Part shown: piece after piece, positions 1-25,701 of the stretch
Layout: each line of letters opens with the position of its first letter
Numbering within the stretch: position 1 is the first letter of the stretch
Virus record (IMG/VR): IMGVR_UViG_2579778538_000002
From: a virus
Lineage: Duplodnaviria > Heunggongvirae > Uroviricota > Caudoviricetes
Reading direction: 5' to 3' (one strand)
DNA length: 33,753 nt
Made by a program: the position numbers and the translations under genes
Notes under the pieces: model-generated
What the model saw: only the letters and a program-made list of their open reading frames with translations
Told to the model about the DNA's origin: nothing
The model's database searches: none

Positions 1-347
1 CATGTTACCGTGACGGAATTCCACCTTGCAGGAACTGGCACTGACTCTGGTCTGAGTGGAAGTGGATAAAGACGGCGCAATGGCCGCCACAGGTTCTTTC
101 TGCTCATCCGGCGTTATTTCTACAGGTAATAATTCAACGCCAGTGTCAGAAGAGGTCGTTACCGGAAGACGCCGCGAAACACGCCCTTCGTTCTGCCAGA
201 GCCTGAGCCATTTGAAAATAACATTATCATTGACGCCATTTTCACGTGCAATCTGTGCAACACAAGCTCCAGGTTGTGATGCCAGTTCCACCATACGAAG
301 TTTGAATTCATTCGAATAGTTTTTACGAGGTTCTTTTCGCCAGTCCT
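1..347 (-). CDS. IS-element transposase OrfA-like protein (HTH, IS3/IS66-type), 5' part only; continues beyond window start
   Basis: Minus-strand frame open from ATG at 347 to position 1 (not in ORF track because no stop in window). Translation MELQDWRKEPRKNYSNEFKLRMVELASQPGACVAQIARENGVNDNVIFKWLRLWQNEGR has the pattern of insertion-sequence OrfA helix-turn-helix proteins (compare IS911 OrfA ..FSAEFK..). Family assignment from memory, not searched. Confidence 0.5.
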
Positions 348-443
348 GTAATTCCATACTTAGATGTCCGTCTATATCAGATGGGCGTCTAAGTTACCAA
401 TTCTCGTCTGATGGCTACATACGGCGGTCAGTTTACGCTTACC
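348..443 (-). mobile_element. putative IS terminus and leader upstream of the transposase orfA
   Basis: About 95 bp non-coding between the gpI-like stop (449) and orfA start (347); on the transposase strand the segment begins GGTAAGCGTAAACTG, which could be a terminal inverted repeat. Other IS end is outside the window. Confidence 0.3.
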
Positions 444-448
444 CATAA

Positions 449-1027
449 TCAACTGCTCCCGTGGTTATAACTGCCATCATGGATGGCGGTATTGTTATAG
501 CGAATGGCCACAGACTGATACTCCAGGCTGGCCAGATGGCAGCGGGCCGGTGCAAATGCAGCCAGCGTCTGACGCAGCATCGCGGCCTGATCGTTAGTAA
601 TGGGCTGTTTCAGAATAACGCGATAAACTGCCCAGGCGGCTGCATCTCCATGAACAAACAGTCCGTTATAGCTGCGATTGCCGTCGTAACTGAGACGACC
701 TGTGCCTTCAATCAGATCCACTTCACCAAAGCCAAAACGGCGGATAACTTCCCGGATTGACCACGGCGTCCCTTTATACCGGTGCAGTTCGATGGCTGCT
801 TTTATAAGCATGCGGCGAACATCGTCCGATTCCGCCAGCTCCCAGCCATCGCCAGACAGTGAGAACTGCTCGCCCAGCCATGGCAGCGCGGAACTGTCGA
901 CGATATCGACGAGAAAGACCATCAGTACGCTCAGGTCGATGTTATCCAGCCGTCCTGCCAGTCTTCCCAGCGTCCTGAGACTGATATCACCCTCAAGCGG
1001 TGGCGGGAGTTGTAATGGCTCAGTCAT
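449..1027 (-). CDS. baseplate/tail protein, P2 gpI-like (Mu gp48-like)
   Basis: 192 aa ORF immediately after the gpJ-like gene with overlapping stop/start; size and position match P2 gpI / Mu gp48. Confidence 0.65.
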   Translation of the reverse strand: MTEPLQLPPPLEGDISLRTLGRLAGRLDNIDLSVLMVFLVDIVDSSALPWLGEQFSLSGDGWELAESDDVRRMLIKAAIELHRYKGTPWSIREVIRRFGFGEVDLIEGTGRLSYDGNRSYNGLFVHGDAAAWAVYRVILKQPITNDQAAMLRQTLAAFAPARCHLASLEYQSVAIRYNNTAIHDGSYNHGSS

Positions 1028-2123
1028 CAGACACTCCAGTCATGTTAAGAGTGATTGCCGTACAGTTTGCCCATTCGTTTTCTGCCACCACCCGCAGTGC
1101 CGGTGTCACCAGTTCAACCTGGTACACCCCGGAAACGGACAATGCACTGATAATCTGGCTGGGGACAATATCGCGCCCCAGCGTGGCGGCACGTGATGCC
1201 ACCCAGTTCTGTATGGCGCTGTTAGCGGCATCTTTTACAGACCTGGCATCCTGATCACGATAGATCGTAATCCTGGCTTCAATGGTGTAATCCACCTTCA
1301 CTGGTGTTTTAGCCCGCACTGTATCAGTGAGTGGCCTGACTTTCTCATCAGAGCAGAAACTCTCTACCAGCGTGAGAACACCGCCGTCCGGCAGACCGGT
1401 ACTGAGCAGCGGATACAGATCTACGGTCCCGGGAACCGGGGAAAGCACAGCAACATCGACAATGTTGGGATGGGCCTGCATGGCATGAAAGCGGTATGCG
1501 CCACGGCTTCCGGCATTGGTGAATGACTCCGGGGCCAGCCTGATACGCTCCCGGAGCCTGTCATCGTCTTCCTGTTCTGAACCGCCGGAACTGGCCATCA
1601 GATTGCTCACCAGCAGGTTAACGTTATCAATCTCATCGAGTAACTGACTGACCTGCGCAGGTTGCCAGCCGTTACCAGCGGTACCGGGTTCGGTACAGGT
1701 GGCCGTGACATTGACCAGCAGCAATCCGGCCTTCAGTACCACATCTGTATCGGTGGCAAAAATAACGCTGTCGGAAGCGCTGACGCGGGTGCCTGCCGGG
1801 ATCAGCACATCAATGGCCAGTGCCTCATCTACGGAGAACTGGAGCGTGGTGGTGGCAGGCTGCGCGGCAAGACGGTATACACCGACCAGTTCACCGAGGT
1901 AATCAATCATCGGCTCACGGGCAAAGGCGACCAGATTCTGCTTTGCTGCCTCCTGTACCGCAACCCTGACCAGCATTTCGCGATAGGCCCACAGATCAAT
2001 CAGCAGACGTTCTGCCTGTGCCGGGTACAGCGTTTTGCCGGTATCCGCTTCATACTTCGCAATCATTTCTGCCGTGATTTTGTCGGCATCGCGTTCAATA
2101 AAATCGGGTTCTGTCAGCGCCAT
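1020..2123 (-). CDS. baseplate J-like protein (P2 gpJ / Mu gp47-like)
   Basis: 367 aa; position after the gpW-like gene; translationally coupled (overlaps neighbours by 8-10 nt). Confidence 0.75.
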   Translation of the reverse strand: MALTEPDFIERDADKITAEMIAKYEADTGKTLYPAQAERLLIDLWAYREMLVRVAVQEAAKQNLVAFAREPMIDYLGELVGVYRLAAQPATTTLQFSVDEALAIDVLIPAGTRVSASDSVIFATDTDVVLKAGLLLVNVTATCTEPGTAGNGWQPAQVSQLLDEIDNVNLLVSNLMASSGGSEQEDDDRLRERIRLAPESFTNAGSRGAYRFHAMQAHPNIVDVAVLSPVPGTVDLYPLLSTGLPDGGVLTLVESFCSDEKVRPLTDTVRAKTPVKVDYTIEARITIYRDQDARSVKDAANSAIQNWVASRAATLGRDIVPSQIISALSVSGVYQVELVTPALRVVAENEWANCTAITLNMTGVSDD

Positions 2124-2461
2124 AGCAGCTCCTGAGTCCGGGTCTGTCCGTCTGAGCCTTTCCAGCTCACCCGGAGCGTAAGATGTTCGCCGTCGACGGC
2201 GGGTTTAACTGACATAAGCTGGCAGCGGGGCTCCCAGCGCCGGATGGCATCGACGGATTCGCGCACCACATGCGGAATGGCCCGGTCTACAGGCCAGTCG
2301 ATATAAAGATGCAGATTGCTGCCGAACTCCGGGCGATGCGGGTCGCTGCCGCGGGGAGTCCGCAGGATAATTTGAATCGCCTGCCGGATATCATCCAGCC
2401 CCCGGACAATTTCGCCGGGAGCCTGCAGGGCTGGTTGCCAGAATACTGAGGTTGTTTTCAT
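2114..2461 (-). CDS. baseplate protein, GPW/gp25 family (Mu gp46-like)
   Basis: 115 aa, typical size for gpW/gp25, sits between gpV-like and gpJ-like genes. Confidence 0.7.
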   Translation of the reverse strand: MKTTSVFWQPALQAPGEIVRGLDDIRQAIQIILRTPRGSDPHRPEFGSNLHLYIDWPVDRAIPHVVRESVDAIRRWEPRCQLMSVKPAVDGEHLTLRVSWKGSDGQTRTQELLWR

Positions 2462-2515
2462 GGGGGCAGTATTGCCCCCGTGCGGGAACGCTGATATTAA
2501 AGGCGTTTAAAAAGC

Positions 2516-3112
2516 TCAGTGGGAGTGGTGGCTGGAGTTTTCGCCATCAGACAACATACTGCCCGTGGCATGGACATTCCCTTTAATCTCGATATTGCCA
2601 TGGATGGTCGCGGTAACACCTTCACCACCAGAACCCGCCATGCCTCCTTCGTAAATCAGCTTACCCCTGACACGCAGATCTCCGGTAAGTTCGGTTTCCG
2701 GTGCGTCAATCGTGGCTTTCTGTGTTTTCAATACCACATCAGCACCACACTCAATGACAATATGCTCAATGCCGCCCCGGATGATCAGAGTGTGCGTCTT
2801 CCGGTTGTAGCTGTACTCTGCACCATCAGCAAACCGGGTTCCCCGGATATTTTTGTCACTGAACGGTGGTTTATCGACGTCTGAATACACCGCGCCCAGA
2901 ATAACACCATCCTCGCCGTTGGCATCGAGCAGCACCTCAACCTGCTCCCCCACGTCAGGGAGCCAGTAATCTTTGTTATCCTGGGTATTGCGCTGCAGCA
3001 CGTTAAGCCAGTTTGTGCGCAGGTTATCGCATTCAGGCAGACGAACGCGGGCCTGAACCCTGTCGGCATCAACGGCACTGACCGTACCGACCTGACGAGT
3101 GACACCAGTCAT
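2516..3112 (-). CDS. baseplate spike/assembly protein V (P2 gpV / Mu gp45-like)
   Basis: 198 aa; N-terminal OB-fold-like region followed by a Gly-rich C-terminus (GGMAGSGGEG), typical of gpV spikes; follows the gpD-like hub gene. Confidence 0.7.
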   Translation of the reverse strand: MTGVTRQVGTVSAVDADRVQARVRLPECDNLRTNWLNVLQRNTQDNKDYWLPDVGEQVEVLLDANGEDGVILGAVYSDVDKPPFSDKNIRGTRFADGAEYSYNRKTHTLIIRGGIEHIVIECGADVVLKTQKATIDAPETELTGDLRVRGKLIYEGGMAGSGGEGVTATIHGNIEIKGNVHATGSMLSDGENSSHHSH

Positions 3113-4263
3113 TTTTTCTTCTCCTTAATCACCGTCGATGTACTGCCATCCGGGTGATAAACCGTGAGTTTCTGAGTTTTTTGTTTTTTCCCTCTTGTGA
3201 CTGGCCCCCGTGCCACTTCCAGCTCTGTGGTGTAGCCGCTGTTACGGTCAAACGCATGGCGGGCAGTGGTTATGAGCCATGGCCCGGATAACTGCCCAAA
3301 ACTCACCAGTTCAATTTTGTTGCCTGCTGTCAGTTGAGGTGTTCCCGTCAGCGTCAGGGAGCCGTTCTGCTGGTATTCGTTATGTCTGGCCAGTGCTGAA
3401 TCCGCTTTAATCCGGGCACTGTCCGGGTCGCTGACGCGGCTGTTAACTTTAAGTGAGTCAGCGCTGGTAACCTTACCACCTTTGAGCTTTTTGTCGCTTT
3501 CACGGGTACCACCATCAGCTTCGTAGACGATCAGTTTTTTACTGCTGCTTTTCTGGTGTTTTACCTTTGCAGATTTATAGACCCGGTTGATGGTGTCACG
3601 CAGGGAAAAGCGGGCCACATCCTGCGGTTTTAACTGCCTGACCGGCTCCTGACTGCGCAGTGTGGCCAGATGAGAAAAAATCAGCTGGTCACTGACCACT
3701 TTCACTGCATAACCATACTCGCTGGCCAGCCGGCGCAGAAAACCCACGTCGGTTTCAGCATACTGGGTCACCCGGTCGATTCTGATGGACTCAATGCTGC
3801 CCACCAGTTTCAGCCGGTGCTTTCTGGCAATCCGCCCCGCAACAGCTGCCAGCGTGGTGTTCTCAAAACCACGACTGGTTTTAGTCCGCAGGGCACTGTT
3901 AACCGAGGTGGCCACCCCACGGATAGAAACAACGGAAGCGGGCGAACTCACTTCGATCTCGTCTATAGAGAACGTACCGCAGGACAGCAGCTTCTCGCCC
4001 TGATAGCCCATTTTCAGCGTCAGCGTGTCACCCTTGCCCGGATACCATTTATCCAGCCAGCGGCCATCGGTGTCGTCCAGCTCCACCTCAATGGTATCGG
4101 ACTCATTTTTGATGTTATCGCTCCAGGTCACACGGGTGACATAAGGCGCGATATCAGAGGTGATGTTTTTCTGCAGATACCACAGAGTGAACACCGGTGT
4201 CAGCACATCGCTGACGCCGGTTAACGCTGATGTGACTTGCGCAGTGCTGTTTATCTCAGCCAT
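3109..4263 (-). CDS. baseplate hub / late control D-like protein (P2 gpD, Mu gp44-like)
   Basis: 384 aa, size and position as P2 gpD (tape measure - U - X - D order). Confidence 0.7.
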   Translation of the reverse strand: MAEINSTAQVTSALTGVSDVLTPVFTLWYLQKNITSDIAPYVTRVTWSDNIKNESDTIEVELDDTDGRWLDKWYPGKGDTLTLKMGYQGEKLLSCGTFSIDEIEVSSPASVVSIRGVATSVNSALRTKTSRGFENTTLAAVAGRIARKHRLKLVGSIESIRIDRVTQYAETDVGFLRRLASEYGYAVKVVSDQLIFSHLATLRSQEPVRQLKPQDVARFSLRDTINRVYKSAKVKHQKSSSKKLIVYEADGGTRESDKKLKGGKVTSADSLKVNSRVSDPDSARIKADSALARHNEYQQNGSLTLTGTPQLTAGNKIELVSFGQLSGPWLITTARHAFDRNSGYTTELEVARGPVTRGKKQKTQKLTVYHPDGSTSTVIKEKKK

Positions 4264-4466
4264 GGGGCAATATCCTCTTCTGTACGGGCTTCTTCAGCCT
4301 CAATCACCGGGATCAGTAACAACAGCCCGGAGGGCAGCACCGGCGTGATGGCCACGTGCGGATTGGCGGCAATAATCCGGGGATAGCCCAGCGGGTCACC
4401 GTAGTACTGCCATGCCAGCGAATCCCAGCGCTCTCCGTCACGGGTAACATGTTCAAGAAACATCAC
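4251..4466 (-). CDS. tail protein X-like (LysM-like small tail protein)
   Basis: 71 aa, overlaps both neighbours; size and position as P2 gpX-family tail protein. Confidence 0.55.
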   Translation of the reverse strand: MMFLEHVTRDGERWDSLAWQYYGDPLGYPRIIAANPHVAITPVLPSGLLLLIPVIEAEEARTEEDIAPWLR

Positions 4467-5347
4467 ACACTCCTCGTCAGTATTCTGGCGGCCATTGCAC
4501 TTAATCCCGGAGACATGCGGTTGAATGCTGTGCCGACGGCGTTAAGCTGCCCGGAAACGGTATCCAGAGCACCTGCAATATTTCTTTTGTCCACACCACT
4601 CAGCGCAGACTGTGCCTGCTGTACATACGTGGCTGCTTCGCTGGCTGTTCTGGCCAGACTGATGGCATCGGGCATGGATTCAGAGAGTGCGTTAAACGCC
4701 GGAACACTTTTCCCCAGAGCCCCGGAGATATTACCCAGTCCGCTCATCAGCCCCGGCACACGGGTCAGTGCGACAACGGGGTTATCCTTCATTTTCTGTG
4801 TCACCCGAACGGCGCTGATAGTGGTCTGGAGTACAGACTGCGCCTGTTTCGCATAGTTGACGCCGTTGCGGATGAACTGCGCCACCCCTGAAGGTGAAGG
4901 TATGGCACCGGAGACCGCCCCGACACCCGGGAGCTTCGTGCGTATTGCCGGTGGTTGCAGAGGATTTTTCGGGTCACCGGTGTATTCCCGGAGAGACACG
5001 GTGGCACTGACAGCCAGCACGTTGCCGGTACTGTCAGTCTGCTCGCTGGTTGCAGTCACATCGGTGATCACGAACCAGCCGCGATAGTCACCGTTGCCGA
5101 AGACCAGCGCCAGTGCCTGATGGGCTTTCATGGCTGTTCGCAGTCTCGCCAGCTCCACATCGGGTACACAATAATGCTGATGGAAAACCAGAGTTATCTG
5201 GATTTCGTCCAGCCTGTCGCCGACGAACTGCAGACCAGGCTTACCCCCGATGCGGGCATGCTCCGCATAATCGACGCCGAACGTGGCCTCGAAGCCGTCC
5301 CAGTAGGTAATCAGCTCAAACTCAATATCACCCAGTACGGCAAACAT
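4463..5347 (-). CDS. tail formation protein, P2 gpU-like N-terminus (Mu gp43/N region)
   Basis: 294 aa; N-terminus MFAVLGDIEFELITYW...GKPGLQFVGDRLDEIQITL resembles the gpU signature (..LG.F.F......FQFLG...I.L.G); starts 1 nt inside the tape measure stop. Confidence 0.55.
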   Translation of the reverse strand: MFAVLGDIEFELITYWDGFEATFGVDYAEHARIGGKPGLQFVGDRLDEIQITLVFHQHYCVPDVELARLRTAMKAHQALALVFGNGDYRGWFVITDVTATSEQTDSTGNVLAVSATVSLREYTGDPKNPLQPPAIRTKLPGVGAVSGAIPSPSGVAQFIRNGVNYAKQAQSVLQTTISAVRVTQKMKDNPVVALTRVPGLMSGLGNISGALGKSVPAFNALSESMPDAISLARTASEAATYVQQAQSALSGVDKRNIAGALDTVSGQLNAVGTAFNRMSPGLSAMAARILTRSV

Positions 5348-8298
5348 CAGCGGTACTCCTTACGTTGTTTCTGAGCCAGCAGACGCTCCAGCATTTTTTC
5401 CAGCTCATGCAGACTCATATTCAGGGCACCAGTCAGTCCTGCAGGCGCTGTGGTTTCCCTGCCATTGAGGAAAAACTGAGGATTAAAGCTGACCTGGATA
5501 CCACCAGACGTTCCACCGCCGGTTGCAGCTGCACCACGGCCTGAATATCCGGCAGCCAGGATTTCAGGCGAGGGGATACGGGGAACATCCGGTGTCATCT
5601 CATTTGCCAGACGTTGCCCTGGTAAAATCGATGCCCGGGTGGAGAGCGGAATAGCGGGCATGGAAGACAAACTATTGATTACGGCTCCGATCGCATTTTT
5701 AGCAGACGACATAAACCCATTGATATCGGGCAACGGCATACTGAAGCGAACACCTGAAGTGTTATCCCGTATTTCTGGCCCCTGAATGCTCACGGGCATT
5801 CTGGGGAGCAGTTCACTGGCCATTCGCTGCCCGGCCAGAGCTGCAAGCGGAGTGGTCCGCTGCAGGCCAATGGCGGCCCCCTGCGCGATATTGTCACCAA
5901 AGCCCATAAACACGCGGCTCGGCGAATGAATGCCCAGCTTTTCGCTGAACCAGCCACTGATGCTGTCGCCCATTCCGGTTACACTGGATTTGAGCGACTC
6001 CCATTTGTTTTTGATACCGTTAATCAGACCATCGACAAGATGGCCACCGAAGTCGGTAAACTTTGCCGGCAGATCAACACCAAGATATTTCAGCGCAGCT
6101 GCAAAGGCTTTATAGAGCAGACCTGCCGGCGACCAGTTAATCAGCAGCTTACCAGTTCCCGCGATACCGCCGTTAAAGGCTTCCTGAATGTCAGCCCAGC
6201 ATTGTTTAAACCAGCTACTGATGCTGTCACCCATTCCGGTTACACTGGATTTGAGCGACCCCCATTTGTTTTTGATACCGTTAATCAAACCGTCGATAAG
6301 ATGGCCACCGAAGTCGGTGAACTTTGCCGGCAGAGTAACGCCGAAATATTTCAGCGCAGCCGCAAAGGCTTTATAGAGCAGGCCTGCCGGCGACCAGTTA
6401 ATCAGCAGCTTACCAGTTCCCGCGATACCGCCGTTAAAGGCTTCCTGAATGTCAGCCCAGCGCTGTTTAAACCAGCCACTGACTGCCCCCCAGTTGCGGT
6501 AGATAAGGTAAGCTGCTGCCGCGACAGCGGTGATAACGAGACCGATGGGATTCATCATCAGCGCTCGCCCAATCCAGAGAACGGCACGTGCAGCGCTCAT
6601 AAAACCGCGAACGAGGCTGCCCGCCAGAACTTTGCTGAGTTTCAGTCCTCCGCTGGTCAGTCGGCTGAATCCAGTGACAAGCCAGCGTAATTTGCCACCT
6701 TCTCCGAGTGCGGTAGTCAGTCGATGCCAGTTGGTCCGGAGTAAAACAGCAGTTTTCCAGACGTTCACAAAGGGGGAAATAAGGAGATTCAGCCCCAGTT
6801 TGAGACCAACAGTCGCTATCTTAATCGCAAGGAGCGCACTGATGAGCTTAAAAGCCCCACTGACAAATTGCGGGTGAGTCGCCACCCAGTGTTTTGTCCC
6901 CTGAATGAGTGGGAGCAAGTCCTGAGTCAGAGAAATAAAAGATGGAGCTAATTGATCGCCCAGCGTAATTGCCAGATCGCGACTGCTGACCATAAGTGTT
7001 TTAGTGGCTTCAAGGGGAGATTTCAGCCGCTGATCATAAGCACTGGCAAGCAAATCGTTATCCGCAGCCCTGAGAGCACCGGCACGGATCTCTCGATATC
7101 TGTCCATGTTGGCCAGCATCGGGCGGATAAATGCCATGACCTGCATATCCGCGAACATATCGCCCAGACCAAAGTTTTTCGCCAGAGCCTGAAGTGCCTC
7201 ATCTCTTGCCGTATCATTCTTTATTTTCATGGCTGATTTGAAGCCGGCCAGCGCTTCGGGGCTTTTGGCATTGAGGTAACGTTCTATAACACTCAACATC
7301 CCTTCAATCGGAGAGATCCCCGCAGCTTTATAACTCGCAATAGATCCCTGCAAATCAATACCCAGATCAGCAAACTGTTTCTGAGTATCGCGGGCAAAAA
7401 TTTTGGTAAGAAAGTTTTTAAAATTATTGGCTGCTTCGTCGGTGGAACCTGCACCGATTTTTGCTATCTGGAGACTGGCCCCGATTTCAGCAACAGCCTC
7501 TTTTCCACTGGCAATACCCGCCATCATTGGGGCCAGGGACTGCATCCACTTGACCTGATCCGGGATTTCAAATGACCCCTGGTCACCGGCATAAGCCATA
7601 ATATTCTGAACGGCACCAAAATCTCTGGCCGCGCCTTTCAGGGAGTTTTGCCAGACTGCGGCCACTTTTGCCCAGTCCTGAGCAGACGTGCGTGTTGCCG
7701 TTGCCGCGCGGGCAATATCCGGCATCAGAAAACCGATATCTGACACATTATCAATATTGTCGCTGATGAGTGAACCCATCGCCTCCTGCAGCTCATCCTG
7801 ATACTGATTGTATTTAAGCGCCCAGCCTTTTATCTGTCCGGCAAGTGCATCCCGCGTTTTATTGTCATATTTTGCGGTGATCGACATATCAATCATTTTG
7901 TCCTGAAAAGACATGGACTGCTGAACGGCAGGGGAAACCGTATGATAAACAGTCTGTGCCATGCCATACGCTTCAATCCCCTGACCATACAGCGCCATGC
8001 GGTTAGCTTTCAGCGCATCACTGGTAGCGGATGCCGCTGACAGACGGCGCTGCTGGCGCTCAATTTGCTCCATGGTGCGGCTTACCCGCAGCAGCTCGCT
8101 GTTGAGATGCTGCATCCGGGAAGAACCCAGTTGACCATAACGTTCTGTTGCACGGGTTAAAGCGTTCTGACGTTCCTGCAGGCGGCGTGAGGTATCGCTC
8201 AGGGAATCAAGCGCACGGCGGGTACCGCTCATTGCAGAACGGAATGTGCTGCCAATCATCCCGCCGATAACAACGCCGACTGAAAACTGTCCCGACAT
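5347..8298 (-). CDS. tail tape measure protein
   Basis: 983 aa, largest tail gene, directly downstream of the frameshifted chaperone pair; helical N-terminal third, hydrophobic central segment, internal tandem repeat; GGAGG Shine-Dalgarno about 10 nt upstream of ATG. Confidence 0.85.
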   Translation of the reverse strand: MSGQFSVGVVIGGMIGSTFRSAMSGTRRALDSLSDTSRRLQERQNALTRATERYGQLGSSRMQHLNSELLRVSRTMEQIERQQRRLSAASATSDALKANRMALYGQGIEAYGMAQTVYHTVSPAVQQSMSFQDKMIDMSITAKYDNKTRDALAGQIKGWALKYNQYQDELQEAMGSLISDNIDNVSDIGFLMPDIARAATATRTSAQDWAKVAAVWQNSLKGAARDFGAVQNIMAYAGDQGSFEIPDQVKWMQSLAPMMAGIASGKEAVAEIGASLQIAKIGAGSTDEAANNFKNFLTKIFARDTQKQFADLGIDLQGSIASYKAAGISPIEGMLSVIERYLNAKSPEALAGFKSAMKIKNDTARDEALQALAKNFGLGDMFADMQVMAFIRPMLANMDRYREIRAGALRAADNDLLASAYDQRLKSPLEATKTLMVSSRDLAITLGDQLAPSFISLTQDLLPLIQGTKHWVATHPQFVSGAFKLISALLAIKIATVGLKLGLNLLISPFVNVWKTAVLLRTNWHRLTTALGEGGKLRWLVTGFSRLTSGGLKLSKVLAGSLVRGFMSAARAVLWIGRALMMNPIGLVITAVAAAAYLIYRNWGAVSGWFKQRWADIQEAFNGGIAGTGKLLINWSPAGLLYKAFAAALKYFGVTLPAKFTDFGGHLIDGLINGIKNKWGSLKSSVTGMGDSISSWFKQCWADIQEAFNGGIAGTGKLLINWSPAGLLYKAFAAALKYLGVDLPAKFTDFGGHLVDGLINGIKNKWESLKSSVTGMGDSISGWFSEKLGIHSPSRVFMGFGDNIAQGAAIGLQRTTPLAALAGQRMASELLPRMPVSIQGPEIRDNTSGVRFSMPLPDINGFMSSAKNAIGAVINSLSSMPAIPLSTRASILPGQRLANEMTPDVPRIPSPEILAAGYSGRGAAATGGGTSGGIQVSFNPQFFLNGRETTAPAGLTGALNMSLHELEKMLERLLAQKQRKEYR
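5950..6471. repeat. in-frame tandem duplication, 2 x 261 bp, inside the tape measure gene
   Basis: Two adjacent 261-nt units starting near 5950 and 6211, about 94% identical (about 16 mismatches); a third unit begins at 6472 and diverges after about 10 nt. Encodes a duplicated 87-aa block (WFKQRWADIQEAFNGGIAGTGKLLINWSPAGLLYKAFAAALKY...). Confidence 0.9.
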
Positions 8299-20127: not shown

Positions 20128-20453
20128 TATTGACCTCCGGTATTGCGGTACTGCTGTACCACTTCCAGTTTGTTATAAAGCGCGTCCAGTTTGGCCTCAA
20201 TGACTGTCTGGCCACGGATATAATCCTCTCGACGGACATAATTCAGCGGTAAATCCGCTTTAAATCGCATAAATTCTTTTTCCAGCTCGCCCCAGTTGGA
20301 GGCGGATTGTTGCAGGGCCTGTTCAAGGGAGGCGAATCGTGCCGCCTGGCGTTCTTCTGTTTTACTGAACAACCATTTGGCGAGCCCTCCCACAAACCTC
20401 ATGAAGGTGAGCAGAAAACTCACCACCGTCCAGAATTCAACCTGCAGTGTCAT
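20127..20453 (-). CDS. membrane protein with one N-terminal TMD (Mu gp25 'releasin'-position)
   Basis: 108 aa; hydrophobic stretch FWTVVSFLLTFMRFVGGLAKWLF then helical region; located right after the spanins. Confidence 0.45.
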   Translation of the reverse strand: MTLQVEFWTVVSFLLTFMRFVGGLAKWLFSKTEERQAARFASLEQALQQSASNWGELEKEFMRFKADLPLNYVRREDYIRGQTVIEAKLDALYNKLEVVQQYRNTGGQ

Positions 20454-21100
20454 TTCTGTAATCCTTCCCGTTCATCCAGCAGCGCGTTTATCTGGTTCCG
20501 CCAGCGACGACATTGCCATGCGTTGTCGATGATGTTGGCGAGAACGTCACGCTGGGAGACACCCGAATCGCGTAACCGGGTGTCAGTGGTTTCAGGTTGC
20601 CCGGTCGCTGTGCCAGAGCGGGTGCCAGTGGCGGCAACTGAGTCTGAATGACCGGTGTCGACGGATGCGTTGTCATATCCGAGTGCGGCGTTGTACTGGC
20701 GCACGAAACCGCGAGTAAACACGCACTCAATGGGATGACTCTTACCTTTTTCATCAATCCAGCGCTGTGTGACATCGTTAATTTGCCCCTGTAGTTGTTT
20801 GTTCCGGCTCTCCAGTTGAGCAATCTGCTCAAGATAACCGGCTTCAGCCCGCTGCCCGGCGGCCACCTGCTCCTGATACCGTCTGGCCCAGGCCCGCAGC
20901 GCAGCATTCTCAAGCGTTGCCTGCTCCGTTTTGTACGCGTCAAATGCTGACTGCAACTGACTTAGCGCGGTATCACCGTCACGCTTTGCAGAGTCATGAC
21001 CACTTCTGTATCCCATGGCATACAGGCCGACCAGAAAGGCATTGATAAGAATGGCCAGCAGAATGCCGCGCCACGGCAGCTTTTTAACCAGATGCCACAC
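20450..21100 (-). CDS. i-spanin (Rz-like inner-membrane spanin)
   Basis: Positively charged N-terminus then TMD (LPWRGILLAILINAFLVGLYAMGY), then long helical periplasmic region; an out-of-frame lipoprotein gene is nested inside. Track ORF starts at 21202; GTG near 21100 with GGGGAGG Shine-Dalgarno is the more plausible start. Confidence 0.55.
   Translation of the reverse strand: MWHLVKKLPWRGILLAILINAFLVGLYAMGYRSGHDSAKRDGDTALSQLQSAFDAYKTEQATLENAALRAWARRYQEQVAAGQRAEAGYLEQIAQLESRNKQLQGQINDVTQRWIDEKGKSHPIECVFTRGFVRQYNAALGYDNASVDTGHSDSVAATGTRSGTATGQPETTDTRLRDSGVSQRDVLANIIDNAWQCRRWRNQINALLDEREGLQK
20488..20754 (-). CDS. o-spanin (Rz1-like outer-membrane lipoprotein), nested in the i-spanin gene
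   Basis: Internal Met of track ORF 20488-20943: MKKVRVIPLSACLLAVSCASTTPHSD... has a lipoprotein signal (lipobox AVSC) and a Pro-rich mature part, entirely inside the i-spanin gene in another frame. Confidence 0.6.
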   Translation of the reverse strand: MKKVRVIPLSACLLAVSCASTTPHSDMTTHPSTPVIQTQLPPLAPALAQRPGNLKPLTPGYAIRVSPSVTFSPTSSTTHGNVVAGGTR

Positions 21101-21824
21101 AACTGCTGCCTCCCCATGTGAGATATCGCGGTGCCAGTTCGCGCAGGATGCGCTGCGGATAATGGCGGTTCTCCCGCCAGCTGGCCGCATTGCGTCCGGC
21201 ATTCACCGTGGCGACATGTCCGAACCAGCGGGTGCTGTCCAGACCTTTCTGTGATGCAAGCCGCCTGTCCCGTTGTACCCAGCCCAGACCACCGTTATAG
21301 CCCGACAGTGTCATGGCCATACGCTCGCAGTCACTGGCGGCGCTGACACGCTGCCACAGCCAGCGGTCATAGCTGACCAGCGCCCGGATAGCCCATGCCG
21401 GATTAAACGGCTCACGACTGCTCAGCATCGGTATCAACTGGCTTATCCAGTCGGCAGTGGCAGGCATGAACTGCGCCAGTCCCTGAGCGCCAGCCGGCGA
21501 GATCGCATCAGGTCGCCAGCCGCTTTCCTGATGCAGTTGCGCGGCGAAATCGGCCACCGGCGCAGACAGTCCCCATTCAAGCCGGGCATTACGGATCACA
21601 TCATCGCGATACTGCAGCGCAGCCTGCGGAGGTTGTGCTGCGCATGCCTGGCTGAAAAAGCCGCCACACCAGAGCAACATTGCGACAAAGAATACCCATG
21701 CCATATGAACCAGAAAGGTCCCGGCGCGGACTGACAGGCGTTCGGTTCTGATGAAGACCCGAAAGGCTTCGAAAGCCAGTTTCAGGGACATGCATACAAT
21801 CCAGGTGATCTGCGGCCAGTTCAT
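21084..21824 (-). CDS. endolysin, lytic transglycosylase (SLT domain) with N-terminal hydrophobic signal/SAR-like segment
   Basis: Catalytic-region signature QLHQESGW ... GAQGLAQFMPATA (E-S / GLMQ-type SLT motif); hydrophobic MAWVFFVAMLLWCGGFFSQA before the domain; true start may be an internal Met. Confidence 0.8.
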   Translation of the reverse strand: MNWPQITWIVCMSLKLAFEAFRVFIRTERLSVRAGTFLVHMAWVFFVAMLLWCGGFFSQACAAQPPQAALQYRDDVIRNARLEWGLSAPVADFAAQLHQESGWRPDAISPAGAQGLAQFMPATADWISQLIPMLSSREPFNPAWAIRALVSYDRWLWQRVSAASDCERMAMTLSGYNGGLGWVQRDRRLASQKGLDSTRWFGHVATVNAGRNAASWRENRHYPQRILRELAPRYLTWGGSSCVASG

Positions 21825-21826
21825 GA

Positions 21827-22177
21827 TTAAAGCCCCATCGCAACAGCCAGGCAGACCGCTGCAACAATCAGTGCACGGCGGATTAACGCAGCAGAAAACA
21901 CCAGGTGAAGGCCGGTCTGTACCGGGAAACGCCCTTCAGCCATCAGCCTGTCGTCATGTTTCAGGTACTGACCGGGACGGGCTTTGGGGAAGAGCGAACG
22001 GTCAAGCCAGTAACCCAGCACTGCTGCCAGCGTGATGAGTGCCAGCTTGTAGATCACAACAGGCAGCTGCTGTGGTGAGACCAGAGCGATGGTGCCCAGC
22101 AACAGCACTGAGGTCAGCAGCCAGCCGCTGAGGCGAGGTTTTTTAACAGGGGGAATGAATTTTTTCAGGTTTTTCAT
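21827..22177 (-). CDS. putative holin / small multi-TMD membrane protein
   Basis: Start moved to ATG at 22177 (AAGGAG 7 nt upstream); 116 aa with about three hydrophobic segments; first gene of lysis cassette directly upstream of the endolysin. Confidence 0.5.
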   Translation of the reverse strand: MKNLKKFIPPVKKPRLSGWLLTSVLLLGTIALVSPQQLPVVIYKLALITLAAVLGYWLDRSLFPKARPGQYLKHDDRLMAEGRFPVQTGLHLVFSAALIRRALIVAAVCLAVAMGL

Positions 22178-22196
22178 GTGTGTCTCCTTATCTGGT

Positions 22197-22235
22197 GGAG
22201 ACAGCATCACAAATACAGGGCGCGAAGGATTTTAA
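22197..22235 (-). promoter_or_regulatory. candidate activator-dependent late promoter upstream of the lysis cassette (same tripartite motif as upstream of gene I)
   Basis: Minus strand reads TTAAAATC-N9-CTGTATTT-N6-CTGTCTCC, ending about 20 nt before the holin ATG; in the divergent intergenic region 22178-22307. Confidence 0.4.
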
Positions 22236-22307
22236 AGCGCGTTAAGAGAGCCGGGGATACGGGATGTGCAGGATAAACGATGAATTATTCACAGAGGAGA
22301 ATACGAT

Positions 22308-23036
22308 ATGACGCAGACACTGAATCCGGTCATCACTGTCACCGTGTCCGGTCCTGTGGGCAGCGGTAAAAGTTACGTACTGGCGCGAATAGAGGAAGTG
22401 GTGAAACAGGAATTCGGAAACAGCGTCATTGTCGACGCCGCAGACGTGGACGGTGAGCGCCGTATGAGTGGGGATGATCTGAGCACATGGCAGAAACCAC
22501 GGGCTGGCACAGTGATCAGGCTGGAGGAATACACGGGACAGGGCCTGTTGTCATACGGCGAGGAGCGTATCTGTCGGACGAATGAGCTGCTGGATGTTAT
22601 ATGCCCCACGGGCCGGCAACCCTGGATACTGCCCGATGCACTGCATGCCACCATTGCGGCACTGATGACAGTTTACGATCAGGAGCTGCTCATGAAGGAG
22701 TTACGTAAACTCACTGGTCAGTCAACAGAATGTTGTTCGTCCCCGAAGTACGGCAAACAGGAACACATCCCGATTAACCAGCCTCCCCGGTTCTTCGACG
22801 AATACCTTCTGACACCGGAAAATAAAGCTGAGCATGAAGAGATCAAAGCGGCGTTGTTCCGGGAAATCAGGAAGATTGCTGAAATGCAACTGGAGGGCGG
22901 GCTGGACAGAGTGATGGCGAGAGGAGAATGGGCATCGCTGTTTGAAAGAGTTTCCCCGGAATTACTTCCCCTCGCACTGGCTATCGGGATTATGCAGACA
23001 GCGGATAAACCTCACTTACGTTCATTAAACACGTAA
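22308..23036 (+). CDS. P-loop NTPase, kinase-like (Walker A GPVGSGKS at residues 15-22), unknown function
   Basis: 242 aa with strong Shine-Dalgarno (GAGGAG) before ATG; N-terminal strand-P-loop-helix arrangement VITVTVSGPVGSGKSYVLARIEE and candidate Walker B SVIVDAAD; transcribed divergently from the late operon. Confidence 0.6.
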   Translation: MTQTLNPVITVTVSGPVGSGKSYVLARIEEVVKQEFGNSVIVDAADVDGERRMSGDDLSTWQKPRAGTVIRLEEYTGQGLLSYGEERICRTNELLDVICPTGRQPWILPDALHATIAALMTVYDQELLMKELRKLTGQSTECCSSPKYGKQEHIPINQPPRFFDEYLLTPENKAEHEEIKAALFREIRKIAEMQLEGGLDRVMARGEWASLFERVSPELLPLALAIGIMQTADKPHLRSLNT

Positions 23037-23416
23037 CGCATAATCCGGGATACGCATTCAGCGATGACTGCATTTTCACCGGTTTTTACTGCATCCAGAA
23101 GTGACTCTTTAAATGGTACGGGCCGGGGCTGCAGAAAGGTCGGCATGGCATTGAGCAGACAGAGCGTTTTTTCCGTGAGGACGACATCAGCCGCTCCCAC
23201 AGCCAGCAACTGAGAGTAACGAATATAGCTGTTATCCCGAAGCCATATCAGCGTATCAATAAAACACCGGCACTTTTTCTGGTCGTGATCAACCTGGTCC
23301 GGGATATCGAAAAAACCAGAATAAATCAAAACCTGAGGTGCCGGATGCGTGTTCAGTAATCGGCAGAATATTTTGCCGGTGAGTACATAAAAATCATCAT
23401 TTAAGGAGTGCATCAT
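23012..23416 (-). CDS. hypothetical protein (134 aa)
   Basis: ORF convergent with the P-loop gene (25-bp 3' overlap) and head-to-head with the 71-aa gene; AT-richer than the phage core; coding status uncertain. Confidence 0.4.
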   Translation of the reverse strand: MMHSLNDDFYVLTGKIFCRLLNTHPAPQVLIYSGFFDIPDQVDHDQKKCRCFIDTLIWLRDNSYIRYSQLLAVGAADVVLTEKTLCLLNAMPTFLQPRPVPFKESLLDAVKTGENAVIAECVSRIMRYVFNERK

Positions 23417-23630
23417 GAATCCCCGATTAACGTTAACAGAACATCAGCGCCGTGCTGAAGCAGTGAACAATGTTCTGGAAGATATTATCCGGTTATACCG
23501 CGGAGAACTGAGTGTCTGTCGTGCCGCTTTTCATTTTCAGGGAATACAAAAGCAGTTTGATACTTCTGTTTTTGCAGAAGGTATTACTTATGCCCTGGAC
23601 CGGATAAGGTCAGAAAATCGCCCCGGATAA
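23415..23630 (+). CDS. hypothetical protein (71 aa)
   Basis: ATG preceded by AAGGAG with 6-nt spacing; no recognisable motifs. Confidence 0.45.
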   Translation: MNPRLTLTEHQRRAEAVNNVLEDIIRLYRGELSVCRAAFHFQGIQKQFDTSVFAEGITYALDRIRSENRPG

Positions 23631-23820
23631 TCCCTAAACCACATTAACAGAAATCCCGCCATCCCTGCCGCATCATGAAAGAACGACCAGCCCGGCACCC
23701 GAAAGCCGGGCTGGTCATCGCCCCACAGGAATGCGCTGTGAGCCGACCAAGGTTCAGTCAGTCTCGCGAGACCTGACCAGACTGCCATATTTTTTAATAA
23801 TTGTAAAAGGCTTGCAGATT

Positions 23821-24585
23821 ATGAAAATGCAGACATTACCCATCGTGCCGTGGATTGGTGGCAAACGCCGCCTTGCAAAACACATTCTGCCGCTGTTTCC
23901 GGCGCATGAATGTTATGTGGAGCCGTTTTGTGGGGCAGCAGCGCTCTATTTTCTTAAGACACCCGGCAAGATCGAAGTCATCAATGATATCAACGGTGAA
24001 CTGGTGAATCTGTACCGGGTGGTAAAGCATCACCTGGAAGAATTTGTCCGCCAGTTCAAATGGGCGCTGGTCAGCCGTCAGATCTACAAATGGCTGCAGA
24101 TCACCCCGGAAGAAACACTGACGGATATCCAGCGTGCGGCACGGTTCTACTACCTTCAGAAGCAGGCGTTTGGCGGCAAGGTGGCAGAGCACAGCTTCGG
24201 TACCTCCACCACATCCCCGCCACGCTTCAACCTGCTACGTATTGAAGAAGAACTGTCAGCGGCACACCTGCGGCTTTCCAGAACAGTCATAGAACACATG
24301 GACTGGCAACAGTGCATTGAGCGTTATGATCGTCCGCACACGCTGTTCTACTGCGACCCACCGTACCTGGGTACGGAAGGCTATGGTGTGGATTTTCCTG
24401 AAGGGAACTACTCGCGGCTGGCAGAGCTGGCCCGGTGCATCAGAGGAAAAATGATAATTTCGGTGAACGACATCCCGCAGATGCGCGAGGTGTTCACTGG
24501 ACTGAACATACAGACAGTGAATATCAACTACAGTCTGGCGGGTAAACCCACGCCGCGCCGTGAACTGCTAATCTGCAACTTCTGA
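23821..24585 (+). CDS. DNA N6-adenine methyltransferase, Dam-like (D12 class), orphan
   Basis: N-terminal AdoMet-binding region WIGGKRR...YVEPFCGAAALYF and catalytic motif DPPY (FYCDPPYLGTEGYG) as in E. coli Dam; start set at internal ATG 23821 (MKMQTLPIV...). No restriction endonuclease candidate adjacent. Confidence 0.85.
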   Translation: MKMQTLPIVPWIGGKRRLAKHILPLFPAHECYVEPFCGAAALYFLKTPGKIEVINDINGELVNLYRVVKHHLEEFVRQFKWALVSRQIYKWLQITPEETLTDIQRAARFYYLQKQAFGGKVAEHSFGTSTTSPPRFNLLRIEEELSAAHLRLSRTVIEHMDWQQCIERYDRPHTLFYCDPPYLGTEGYGVDFPEGNYSRLAELARCIRGKMIISVNDIPQMREVFTGLNIQTVNINYSLAGKPTPRRELLICNF

Positions 24586-24616
24586 AACAAAACCGGAAAG
24601 CACAATGCTTTCCGGT
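24581..24616 (-). terminator. candidate intrinsic terminator downstream of the repressor gene (hairpin also abuts the Dam stop)
   Basis: 10-11 bp perfect stem ACCGGAAAGC-ACAAT-GCTTTCCGGT (about 24592-24616), followed on the minus strand by TTTGTTTC; no U-tract on the plus side. Confidence 0.45.
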
Positions 24617-24701
24617 AAACCAAACAACTTCCACTATGTCACTGGCGATGTTTTCTGAAAGCATCCAGATCAACCACCTGTCCTTTGTGTCCGGGTCAGT
24701 A

Positions 24702-25058
24702 TCAGCCTGCGATTTTTCCTGGTTTTGGCTGAGTATAGAATCGCCCAATCTCAAGAAATGAGCGTTGTTGGTCTGGTGTCATGTCGTCAAAAGTATCTAT
24801 TAGTTTTTGTTTTTCTGGGGAAATTTGATTCTGGTTTCTAGTCATACCATCTGTGCTCATTCCAGTGAGCAACCAATTTACATCAACATTAAACTCTTGA
24901 TGCATCTTTAACAGAAACTCCCCTCCAGGCATCGCCTTTCCATTTTCAATCTGACTGATACCACCATTAGAAATACCTAAACGAGCTGCAAATTCTCTCT
25001 GGTTCAACCCTGCTTTCTTCCTCACAGAAATAACGCGCTCTCCTATATCTTTGCTCAT
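24702..25058 (-). CDS. prophage repressor, XRE-family HTH (functional analogue of Mu c)
   Basis: N-terminal helix-turn-helix LNQREFAARLGISNGGISQIENGK; transcribed divergently from the early operon; start codon lies inside an operator half-site. Confidence 0.8.
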   Translation of the reverse strand: MSKDIGERVISVRKKAGLNQREFAARLGISNGGISQIENGKAMPGGEFLLKMHQEFNVDVNWLLTGMSTDGMTRNQNQISPEKQKLIDTFDDMTPDQQRSFLEIGRFYTQPKPGKIAG

Positions 25059-25104
25059 AAAAGTGAATCTCTATCTTGATATGCTCATAATTATGAGCAA
25101 TAAT
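25052..25104. promoter_or_regulatory. operator/early promoter region: perfect 18-bp palindrome TGCTCATAATTATGAGCA (25082-25099) plus a third half-site TGCTCATAA (25052-25060)
   Basis: The palindrome exactly fills the 17-bp spacer between a candidate -35 TTGATA (25076-25081) and -10 AATAAT (25099-25104) pointing into the early operon; the extra half-site overlaps the repressor start codon. Confidence 0.6.
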
Positions 25105-25151
25105 CTAACACATATAAGGCAAACATCATTGCATCAACAAAGGAGACAACG

Positions 25152-25340
25152 ATGACTGCAGAACAAGTCAAAGCTCTCTTCCGCCAGCGCGGGATCACTT
25201 TCACCCGCTGGGCAGAAGAAAACGGCTACAACCGCAATGAGGTATACCGCGTTCTCAACGGGCAGACCAAAGCCCGTTACGGTAAATCCCATGAAATCGC
25301 CGTGAAGTTGGGACTGAAATCAACAGCTCAGGCGGCCTAA
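25152..25340 (+). CDS. small DNA-binding early regulator (Cro/Ner functional analogue)
   Basis: 62 aa, first gene of the early operon, AAGGAG Shine-Dalgarno; HTH-like segment FTRWAEENGYNRNEVYRVLNGQ. Confidence 0.6.
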   Translation: MTAEQVKALFRQRGITFTRWAEENGYNRNEVYRVLNGQTKARYGKSHEIAVKLGLKSTAQAA

Positions 25341-25392
25341 ATATTTTGAGTCTTTGTAAAAGGTTATCACATATCGCAAAAGAGGTATGCAG

Positions 25393-25701
25393 ATGAGTAA
25401 GACGAATGTTTCAAGCTCCGGCAGTCGCATCCTCCGGGTACTCAAAGCGCTGCGCGGTCATGCCCTGAACGGTATTTCTAACGGTGAACTGGCGACAGCA
25501 CTGCACGAGTCACCGGCAAACATCAACCGGGCACTCAACACCCTCATTGAAGAAGGGCTGGCTCTGAAACTGGAGAACGGACGTTTTGCACCGGGCATCC
25601 AGTTACTGCAGATCGCCATGGCCCACAGTAACGAGATGGCACGTGCACAGGATCGTATTAACGAAATTAACCAACGTGTCATTTCAGGTAGTCGTTTGTA
25701 A
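25393..25701 (+). CDS. winged-helix DNA-binding protein (IclR/MarR-like N-terminal HTH)
   Basis: ILRVLKALRGHALNGISNGELATALHESPANINRALNTLIEEGL resembles a winged-helix HTH; start set at ATG 25393 (Shine-Dalgarno AGAGG). Confidence 0.5.
   Translation: MSKTNVSSSGSRILRVLKALRGHALNGISNGELATALHESPANINRALNTLIEEGLALKLENGRFAPGIQLLQIAMAHSNEMARAQDRINEINQRVISGSRL

What the first reader, a model, noticed from the sequence alone, without database searches (positions are those of the whole stretch)
22178..23720. Three-gene accessory island (P-loop kinase-like protein plus two small unknown proteins) at the switch region between late and early operons
Seen: a 242-aa protein with an N-terminal Walker A (GPVGSGKS) and strong RBS, a convergent 134-aa ORF overlapping its 3' end, and a 71-aa ORF with strong RBS. 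The segment is AT-richer than the phage core and none of the three belongs to the Mu core gene set as I know it. Inference: it sits between the lysis cassette and the Dam/repressor region, where temperate phages usually keep cargo, so it could be an undescribed defence, anti-defence or toxin-antitoxin-like module. The 134-aa protein has a weak VLIYSGFFD motif reminiscent of nucleoside 2-deoxyribosyltransferase-like folds; this is speculative.
Basis: partly seen in the sequence, partly recalled or inferred. Interest (0 to 1): 0.7.

Follow-up and report, generated by a model that had tools for sequence, protein, structure and literature searches.

The report
Prophage accessory cassette, not a kinase
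The three ORFs are real, conserved but uncharacterised accessory genes in the variable region of a Mu-like (BcepMu-type) E. coli prophage; the "kinase" is only a 75-residue Walker-A mini-domain fused to swappable modules, and the two small genes form an unusual head-to-head pair also found in the defence hotspot of P2-like phages.

Summary
The window is Escherichia phage PhiKM (Bcepmuvirus), and the segment occurs in about 11% of complete E. coli genomes. All three ORFs exist as described, have strong ribosome-binding sites, are AT-richer than the core and are under purifying selection. The interpretation needs revising. (1) The 242-aa protein is not kinase-like. It is a mosaic of a 75-aa N-terminal Walker-A mini-domain, which exists alone as 72-100-aa phage proteins and heads proteins with at least 8 different C-terminal modules, plus a middle module and a C-terminal module. 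No P-loop NTPase profile or fold match was found. (2) The unit that travels together is the C-terminal module + 134-aa gene + 71-aa gene. It is conserved in a Serratia prophage, where the C-module is a separate 89-aa gene, and it is absent whenever the C-module is absent. (3) The 134-aa and 71-aa genes are head-to-head with abutting start codons (CATCATG). Homologues of the 134-aa protein in more than 40 P2-like phages have the same geometry with an unrelated 64-aa partner, inside the A–Q defence hotspot. (4) There is no match to any known defence, toxin-antitoxin, deoxyribosyltransferase or RNA family. The function remains unknown. My inferred, low-confidence mechanism is a face-to-face-promoter cassette with a role in phage–host or phage–phage conflict.

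The parts
22211..22307 (.). Divergent control region between the lysis (holin) operon and the mosaic gene; the conserved motif TTTTAAAGCGCGTTAAGAG lies at 22230-22248
   Evidence: Blocks are conserved among E. coli, Serratia, Citrobacter and S. diarizonae prophages. The motif is unique in the window. No sigma-70 consensus promoter was found here.
22308..22541 (+). N-terminal mini-domain (aa 1-78) of the 242-aa protein, with Walker-A-like GPVGSGKS
   Evidence: G20 and K21 are invariant; G15, G18, S22, E50 and W61 are nearly invariant; E74 is invariant in the 20-sequence domain alignment. The domain occurs alone as 72-106-aa proteins and at the N-terminus of 140-364-aa mosaics. pLDDT is above 90. 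GC is 56.4%, the same as the core.
22542..22787 (+). Middle module (includes PWILPDALHATIAALMTVYDQELLMKELRKL)
   Evidence: It recurs at the C-termini of P0037, P0039 and P0062. It is present without the C-module in the 141-158-aa variants.
22788..23036 (+). C-terminal module (aa ~161-242) of the 242-aa protein; part of the co-travelling cassette
   Evidence: It is 46% identical to a free-standing 89-aa gene at the same place in Serratia prophages. It co-occurs with p71 in all loci examined. GC is 49.4%.
23012..23416 (-). 134-aa gene (phrog_2266 family); the probable start is the second ATG at 23413; its 3' end overlaps the mosaic gene convergently by 25 nt
   Evidence: Homologues are 82% (L022), 53% (Serratia) and 31% (P2-like phages) identical. 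dN/dS is 0.09 in the P2-like phages. The gene is internally deleted in LR-31, L032 and L035.
23411..23417 (.). CATCATG junction: abutting or overlapping divergent start codons of the 134-aa and 71-aa genes
   Evidence: Searches show the same CATCATG in Serratia. The P2-like loci have CATG in all of the roughly 40 loci examined.
23415..23630 (+). 71-aa gene (phrog_4490)
   Evidence: AAGGAG ribosome-binding site. The 73-aa Serratia homologue is 31% identical and sits in the same position. dN/dS is 0.3-0.4. The gene is retained where p134 is deleted.
23685..23716 (-). Strong 12-bp GC hairpin with a U-rich tail on the minus strand only; a likely terminator for leftward transcripts between Dam and the cassette
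   Evidence: Folding energy is -33.7 kcal/mol for the 66-nt plus-strand segment and -40 kcal/mol for the minus-strand segment (z -5.5 and -6.0). Serratia has a hairpin of different sequence at the same place, followed by UUUUUU on the same (p139) strand.
23821..24585 (+). D12-class DNA adenine methylase (neighbour, possibly co-transcribed)
   Evidence: Pfam MethyltransfD12, E = 8.7e-29. It always lies downstream of the cassette, but it also occurs without it.

Best explanation
SHOWN: the segment is the variable accessory region of a BcepMu-like transposable prophage. It holds a composite of two things. (a) A gene divergent from the lysis operon. Its first 75 residues are a conserved Walker-A mini-domain, and the rest is a string of swappable helical modules. 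(b) A horizontally mobile cassette made of the last of those modules, an antisense 134-aa gene and a 71-aa gene. The last two are head-to-head with abutting start codons. INFERRED mechanism: the plus strand (mosaic gene -> antisense through p134 -> p71 -> Dam) is one transcription unit. p134 is transcribed leftward from a promoter that must lie inside p71, and a minus-strand terminator insulates it from repressor-side transcripts. There is no intergenic space, so the two promoters must face each other. Expression of one strand should then suppress the other by transcriptional interference or antisense pairing, as at P2 Pe/Pc and 186 pR/pL. The likely result is p134 expression in one state (probably the prophage) and the C-module protein, p71 and Dam in the other (lytic growth). 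The C-module and p71 are probably protein partners of p134. The biological role is most likely in phage-phage or phage-host conflict (exclusion or counter-defence), not in core phage development, and no kinase chemistry is involved. Confidence by step: anatomy about 0.9, accessory cargo about 0.8, face-to-face switch about 0.35, conflict role about 0.4.
For: Identity and prevalence: 100% identical to phage PhiKM; found in 584 of 5426 complete E. coli genomes. Mosaicism: an exhaustive HMMER search found that only residues 1-76 are shared with proteins of 72-364 aa that carry different C-terminal modules. Cassette: in Serratia prophages a free-standing 89-aa C-module, a 139-aa homologue and a 73-aa homologue keep the same order and overlaps, and Dam follows. 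The tblastn table shows the C-module and p71 always together, and p134 and p71 never present without the C-module. In E. coli the N-domain plus middle module is in 570 genomes and the cassette in 499. A GC step from 56% to 44-49% falls at the module boundary. Head-to-head geometry is conserved in about 40 P2-like loci; both genes there are under strong purifying selection, dN/dS 0.09 and 0.18. Those loci are in the A–Q hotspot, next to a type VI retron and other cargo. No plus-strand terminator was predicted between the mosaic gene and p71. The natural p134 deletion joins the mosaic gene, p71 and Dam directly. The orientation-specific terminator hairpin is conserved in position but not in sequence.
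Against: No promoter was mapped. The consensus scan found none at the expected places. No DNA-binding or any other domain was detected in p134. Its AF2 model is unusable, with pLDDT 46. The P2-like homologue is acidic, pI 4.55, which is atypical for a repressor. The small partners in the two phage lineages are not detectably homologous. Alternative cargo at the same BcepMu site consists of lipoproteins and unknowns, not known defence genes. In P2-like phages the pair is nearly constant while its neighbours vary, which fits a backbone or regulatory role as well as a conflict role. p134 is dispensable for carriage of the prophage.
Confidence: 0.35

Rival explanations
1. A prophage-encoded anti-phage defence or superinfection-exclusion system. 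The lysogen expresses p134, with or without p71 and the C-module, and these block incoming phages.
For: The region is variable and AT-rich. The p134 family lies in the P2 A–Q hotspot, which is experimentally known to hold defence systems (PMC9122126, PMC9519451), next to a type VI retron. p134 has the same orientation as the repressor and is shielded by a terminator. Among close E. coli variants all 6-7 substitutions in p134 are non-synonymous.
Against: No PADLOC model matches any component or homologue. The proteins have no recognisable effector domain (nuclease, NTPase core, TM, TIR and so on). In P2-like phages the pair is constant and under strong purifying selection, while the true defence cargo around it varies. 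p134 is deleted in some prophages.
Confidence: 0.25
2. A counter-defence (anti-restriction) operon. The mosaic protein and p71 would inhibit host immunity and be co-expressed with the Dam methylase during lytic growth, with p134 as an Aca-like antisense regulator.
For: Plus-strand co-orientation with an orphan D12 methylase. The mosaic architecture of one conserved domain plus many swappable small modules is typical of conflict proteins. Free-standing N-domain proteins lie in early or semi-essential regions of other phages, for example before Mor in a Mu-like contig. The 242-aa protein is acidic, pI 5.2.
Against: There is no homology to any known anti-defence protein. The T7 gp5.5/5.7 similarity noted in the annotation of phage Midge could not be reproduced. 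Dam occurs without the cassette, and the N-domain occurs without Dam. The timing of expression is unknown.
Confidence: 0.25
3. A toxin-antitoxin-like addiction module formed by p134 and p71 (with or without the C-module).
For: The genes are small, adjacent and tightly coupled, they travel together, and they sit on a mobile element.
Against: The genes are divergent, not a co-directional operon. There is no match to any toxin or antitoxin family. p134 can be deleted while p71 is kept, in LR-31, L032 and L035, without loss of the prophage. This excludes p134 as an essential antitoxin to p71.
Confidence: 0.08
4. The 242-aa protein is a working P-loop kinase or NTPase enzyme.
For: The Walker A motif is perfect and conserved across the family. 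An invariant Glu (E74) follows a hydrophobic strand, like a Walker B residue. A profile of the domain weakly matches the beta-strand/P-loop/helix element of many NTPases and of designed minimal P-loop proteins (E about 1e-4 to 1e-3).
Confidence: 0.05

Closest known systems
Face-to-face promoter switches of P2 (C/Cox, Pc/Pe) and 186 (CI/Apl, pL/pR)
   Same: Two small divergent genes whose promoters must each lie on the far side of the other, so the 5' transcripts overlap and interfere. The setting is a temperate phage. This comparison rests on established knowledge of those switches plus the geometry shown.
   Different: Here there is no intergenic space at all; the start codons overlap. No HTH or other DNA-binding domain is detectable, and the proteins have no sequence relationship to C, Cox, CI or Apl. 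The phage has its own repressor/ner switch 1.3 kb away. Promoters have not been mapped.
Cargo of the P2 A–Q hotspot (old, tin, retrons, PARIS and others; Rousset 2022 PMC9122126; Vassallo 2022 PMC9519451)
   Same: Homologues of the 134-aa protein and their 64-aa partner lie in exactly this hotspot, beside a type VI retron or DUF262-like genes. In the window the cassette likewise lies in the variable region of its phage.
   Different: It matches none of the described systems. It is constant rather than variable among the P2-like loci sampled. No effector domain is present.
Minimal or ancestral P-loop prototypes and designed P-loop proteins (PDB 6c2u 'phosphate-loop protein', 9jix)
   Same: A beta-strand/GxxGxGK[ST]/helix element within a very small domain. 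These are among the better profile hits (E = 8e-4 and 1e-3).
   Different: Those are engineered proteins. For the natural 75-aa phage domain, no nucleotide or nucleic-acid binding has been shown, and the AF2 model gave no fold match.
Mu com-mom late DNA-modification operon
   Same: A DNA-modification gene preceded by a small gene, outside the early and structural operons of a transposable phage.
   Different: p71 has one Cys, not the four-Cys zinc finger of Com. Dam is a D12 methylase, not Mom. Dam occurs without p71 in related prophages. Late-promoter control is untested.

Membership tests
P-loop NTPase / kinase | Walker A motif GxxxxGK[ST] after a beta-strand | tested here: met
   GPVGSGKS at residues 15-22. 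G20 and K21 are invariant in 47 sequences.
P-loop NTPase / kinase | Walker B (hhhhD/E) conserved | tested here: inconclusive
   D43 of VIVD is not conserved. E74 after the strand TVIRLE is invariant, but its role is unknown.
P-loop NTPase / kinase | Complete alpha/beta core (five or more strands, roughly 150 residues or more) recognisable by profile or fold | tested here: not met
Nucleoside 2-deoxyribosyltransferase-like | Profile match, and conservation of the proposed VLIYSGFFD motif | tested here: not met
   No Pfam hit at E <= 1. The motif region reads VITYEKFNA in P2-like homologues and MLIFDAFFD in Serratia.
Known anti-phage defence systems (PADLOC-DB 2.0) | A significant match of any component to a system model | tested here: not met
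   The only hits are Walker-A-only matches with E >= 0.003 for the 242-aa protein. p134, p71 and their Serratia and P2-like homologues have none.
Type II toxin-antitoxin module | Co-directional two-gene operon with a recognisable toxin or antitoxin family; the antitoxin cannot be lost | tested here: not met
   The genes are divergent. There are no family hits. p134 is deleted with p71 retained in several prophages. Toxicity itself cannot be tested here.
Winged-helix / DUF2513-type DNA-binding protein (p134) | Profile or structural match to a wHTH family | tested here: inconclusive
   One source names the P0031 cluster 'DUF2513'. Pfam gives no hit for P0031, p134 or their paralogues. PDB profile searches were empty. 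The AF2 model is poor. The segment WL+xxGYI...V.LTEKxLxxLN looks wHTH-like, but this is my reading only.
Face-to-face promoter switch | Divergent genes whose promoters face each other and whose 5' transcripts overlap | not testable with these tools
   The geometry requires it: there is zero intergenic space, and this is conserved in two phage lineages. Transcription starts are not mapped, and the consensus scan is uninformative.
Mu Com-like translational activator (p71) | Four-Cys zinc finger | tested here: not met
   p71 contains a single Cys.
Bcepmuvirus core gene set | A homologue present in BcepMu at the syntenic position | tested here: not met
   BcepMu gp18-20 lie on the holin strand and are unrelated. 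tblastn of all parts against BcepMu found only ner, holin and SLT.

The most novel reading that the evidence does not exclude
Two new things may be hidden here. (1) The 75-residue Walker-A domain may be a natural, autonomous minimal P-loop protein that binds a nucleotide or nucleic acid. It would serve as the constant 'head' of a family of phage proteins with interchangeable inhibitor or effector modules. (2) The 134-aa protein and its start-codon-overlapping small partner may form a new two-gene immunity or counter-immunity switch shared by P2-like and Mu-like prophages, with the C-module as a third, sometimes fused, component.
Probability: 0.15. Interest if true: 0.75.

Novelty: new variant of a known kind. 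Interest (0 to 1): 0.45.

Why it matters
The cassette sits in about one in ten complete E. coli genomes, including ST131 and ABU 83972 lineages, and every component is annotated 'hypothetical'. If the head-to-head pair is a switch or an immunity module, it would add a widespread element to the P2 hotspot and to Mu-like prophages. If the 75-aa domain binds nucleotides, it would be a natural counterpart of the engineered minimal P-loop proteins. For annotation, the result corrects a tempting 'kinase / ABC ATPase' label that already appears in RefSeq as 'ABC transporter ATPase'. It also redraws the functional unit.

Tried and rejected
- Pfam, NCBIfam, PHROGs and PADLOC scans of all three proteins and of their Serratia, P2-like, Citrobacter, Salmonella and Eco889-type neighbours gave no informative family.
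- PDB sequence and profile searches matched only the generic Walker A stretch for the N-domain, and nothing for p134.
- AF2 of p134 gave pLDDT 46, so I did not use it for fold search.
- The similarity to T7 gp5.5/5.7 claimed in the Midge annotation was not reproduced by hhalign.
- Homology between p71 and the 64-aa P2-like partner was not found by BLASTP or hhalign.
- The conserved intergenic motif does not recur in the window, so it is not a repeated late-promoter element.
- Rfam found no known RNA at 21800-25400.
- Literature searches by accession, PHROG id, DUF2513 and phage name found nothing relevant.
- The first genome-collection scan, with the broad alignment, failed for lack of conserved words. 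The narrower alignment worked.

Full report
**Source and setting.** The 1543-bp segment is 100% identical to Escherichia phage PhiKM (PQ738613.1, genus Bcepmuvirus). It is present in 584 of 5426 complete E. coli genomes, always chromosomal, including ST131 EC958 and ABU 83972. On its left are the holin, SLT endolysin and spanin genes on the minus strand. On its right are a D12 DNA adenine methylase (plus strand), an HTH repressor (minus strand), ner and the transposition genes.

**Check of the observation.** The three ORFs are exactly as described. Both plus-strand genes have strong Shine-Dalgarno sequences. The convergent 25-nt overlap between the 242-aa and 134-aa genes is real. The segment has 50.4% GC against 56.4% for the late region. 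PGAP calls all three genes, and each belongs to a PHROG family of unknown function. Substitution patterns indicate coding sequences under selection. dN/dS is about 0.2 for the 242-aa gene and 0.3-0.4 for the 71-aa gene. For the 134-aa gene it is 0.55 at 82% identity and about 0.18 against the Serratia homologue. Among very close E. coli variants, all 6-7 changes in the 134-aa gene are non-synonymous; this is too few to be significant. BcepMu itself has different genes at this position, so the genes are not Bcepmuvirus core.

**The '242-aa P-loop protein' is a mosaic.**
- An exhaustive HMMER search of 1.84 billion representatives found 60 relatives. Apart from close E. coli copies, they share only residues 1-76.
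- Their sequences show one N-terminal domain followed by at least eight unrelated modules in different combinations, in proteins of 140-364 aa. Free-standing versions of 72-106 aa also exist.
- G20 and K21 of the Walker A motif are invariant. G15, G18, S22, E50 and W61 are nearly invariant. E74 is invariant in the 20-sequence domain alignment.
- The middle module of the window's protein recurs at the C-termini of other members.
- The C-terminal module (about residues 161-242) is a separate 89-aa gene in Serratia prophages.
- RefSeq sometimes names the short variants 'ABC transporter ATPase', which looks like an over-annotation.

**What travels together.**
- In Serratia BcepMu-like prophages the order is holin | 89-aa C-module gene | convergently overlapping 139-aa homologue (53% identity) | head-to-head 73-aa homologue (31% identity) | hairpin | Dam.
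- A tblastn table over 60 loci shows that the C-module and p71 always co-occur, and that p134 is with them except in three deletion derivatives. Neither p134 nor p71 is present in prophages whose N-domain gene ends differently: the Eco889 type, Citrobacter, S. diarizonae and L044-46.
- In E. coli the N-domain plus middle module occurs in 570 genomes and the cassette in 499.
- GC falls from 56% in the N-domain to 49, 46 and 44% across the C-module, p134 and p71.
- The unit is therefore C-module + p134 + p71. In E. coli it is fused to the 3' end of a resident gene.
- The LR-31-type deletion removes codons of about 16-127 of p134 between GCAnAAT microhomologies. It leaves the mosaic gene, p71 and Dam contiguous.

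**The head-to-head pair.**
- The start codons of p134 and p71 lie in CATCATG (23411-23417). Serratia has the same heptamer.
- Homologues of p134 at about 31% identity occur in P2-like phages. In every one of the roughly 40 IMG/VR loci examined, and in phages Midge and ST147-VIM1phi7.1, the 143-aa gene is head-to-head with a conserved 63-64-aa gene (phrog_2454), with start codons overlapping as CATG.
- Both P2-like genes are under strong purifying selection, with median dN/dS of 0.09 and 0.18.
- The small partners of the two lineages are not detectably related.
- In P2-like phages the pair lies between portal gene Q and replication gene A. This is the hotspot shown experimentally to hold anti-phage systems (PMC9122126, PMC9519451). 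The pair sits beside a type VI retron, DUF262-like genes or other cargo.
- The pair itself stays constant while its neighbours change.

**Inferred mechanism.**
- There is no intergenic DNA, so each gene's ribosome-binding site lies in the other gene's first codons. AAGGAG for p71 is encoded within codons 3-5 of p134. GGGGA for p134 lies within codons 2-4 of p71.
- Each promoter must therefore lie inside the other gene. This gives facing promoters and overlapping 5' transcripts.
- No plus-strand terminator is predicted between the mosaic gene and p71, so plus-strand transcription probably runs antisense through p134 into p71 and perhaps Dam.
- A very stable hairpin between p71 and Dam has a U-tract only on the minus strand. 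Serratia has a hairpin of different sequence at the same position with the same polarity. This should stop leftward transcripts coming from the repressor side, so p134 needs its own promoter.
- Together these features suggest mutually exclusive expression of the two strands, by analogy with the P2 Pe/Pc and 186 pR/pL switches. This is inference; no promoter was identified.

**Function.**
- No component matches a known defence, anti-defence, toxin-antitoxin or enzymatic family.
- The proposed deoxyribosyltransferase motif is neither detected nor conserved.
- p134 shows a segment that I read as winged-helix-like, clearest in a paralogue in L033. No profile or structure search supports this, and the P2-like homologue is acidic.
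- A simple toxin-antitoxin reading is contradicted by the loss of p134 with p71 retained.
- The location in variable regions of two unrelated temperate phage types, the composition, the mosaic partner protein and the dispensability point to an accessory role in phage-host or phage-phage conflict.
- The data do not separate defence, counter-defence (with Dam) and pure regulation of neighbouring cargo.
- Other cargo at the same BcepMu site consists of lipoproteins and unknowns. The site is therefore a general moron region rather than a proven defence island.

**Verdict.** The segment is accessory cargo of unknown function. The 'kinase' and 'deoxyribosyltransferase' leads are not supported, and the functional unit is redrawn. 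Two features deserve follow-up: the strictly conserved start-codon-overlapping gene pair shared with the P2 hotspot, and the 75-residue Walker-A domain that heads a highly mosaic protein family. Nothing found requires a categorically new mechanism. I rate the finding a new variant of known prophage accessory cassettes, with interest 0.45.

Noticed in passing
L033 6383-7163 (IMG/VR E. coli prophage): A second, divergent paralogue of the 134-aa family (27% identity, about 127 aa, with a clear GYL...VLTAKGLEVLN segment) is inserted between p71 and Dam, together with a duplicated fragment of the Dam 5' end. It has no head-to-head small partner.
   Followed up: partly
L003 5131-7761 (E. coli Eco889) and L037-L042: An alternative version of the region has a 158-aa N-domain plus middle-module protein, then a 193-aa unknown, a 328-aa protein with weak similarity to the flagellar regulator Flk (E = 2.9e-12, below cut-off), and a different 153-aa HTH repressor. 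It has no Dam.
   Followed up: partly
window 23731-24585: The longest Dam ORF starts at 23731 (284 aa), but PGAP aa from 23821. A sigma-70-like site (CTGACC-17-AATAAT, 23773-23801) lies just upstream of the shorter start, so Dam may have its own promoter.
   Followed up: no
L007 3556-4792; L076 and L085 3527-4777: A type VI retron reverse transcriptase (PADLOC RT_VI, E = 5e-104) with its HTH partner lies directly beside the 143-aa/64-aa pair in several P2-like phages.
   Followed up: partly
P0014/P0015 (E. coli, 182 aa): A natural internal deletion variant of the mosaic protein joins residues about 1-50 directly to the C-terminal half, which disrupts the N-domain after the Walker A helix.
   Followed up: no
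model of window 22308-23036: AF2 gives pLDDT above 90 for residues 10-70, yet DSSP reports no beta-strands at all in the expected beta-P-loop-alpha-beta domain. I cannot explain this and had no coordinates to inspect.
   Followed up: no
window 24592-24616 (minus strand): A canonical intrinsic terminator (11-bp stem followed by TTTGTTT) lies immediately after the repressor gene. With the 23685-23716 hairpin, this makes two successive leftward terminators that bracket the antisense of Dam.
   Followed up: no
L004 (E. coli E300010) 1-5600: A heavily degraded remnant of the same prophage, with pseudogenised tail, head and portal genes, ends at the holin gene next to paaX. Only the first 166 bp of the finding are retained.
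   Followed up: no
window 20450-21202 and 20488-20943: A 151-aa ORF is embedded out of frame in the 250-aa ORF downstream of the SLT endolysin. This is the typical Rz/Rz1-type spanin arrangement, as annotated in BcepMu gp23/gp24.
   Followed up: no
L047 1251-2400 (Mu-like IMG/VR contig): A free-standing 100-aa N-domain protein lies at the end of the early region, immediately before a Mor/C-like activator and the lysis genes. This differs from its position in the enteric BcepMu-like prophages.
   Followed up: no
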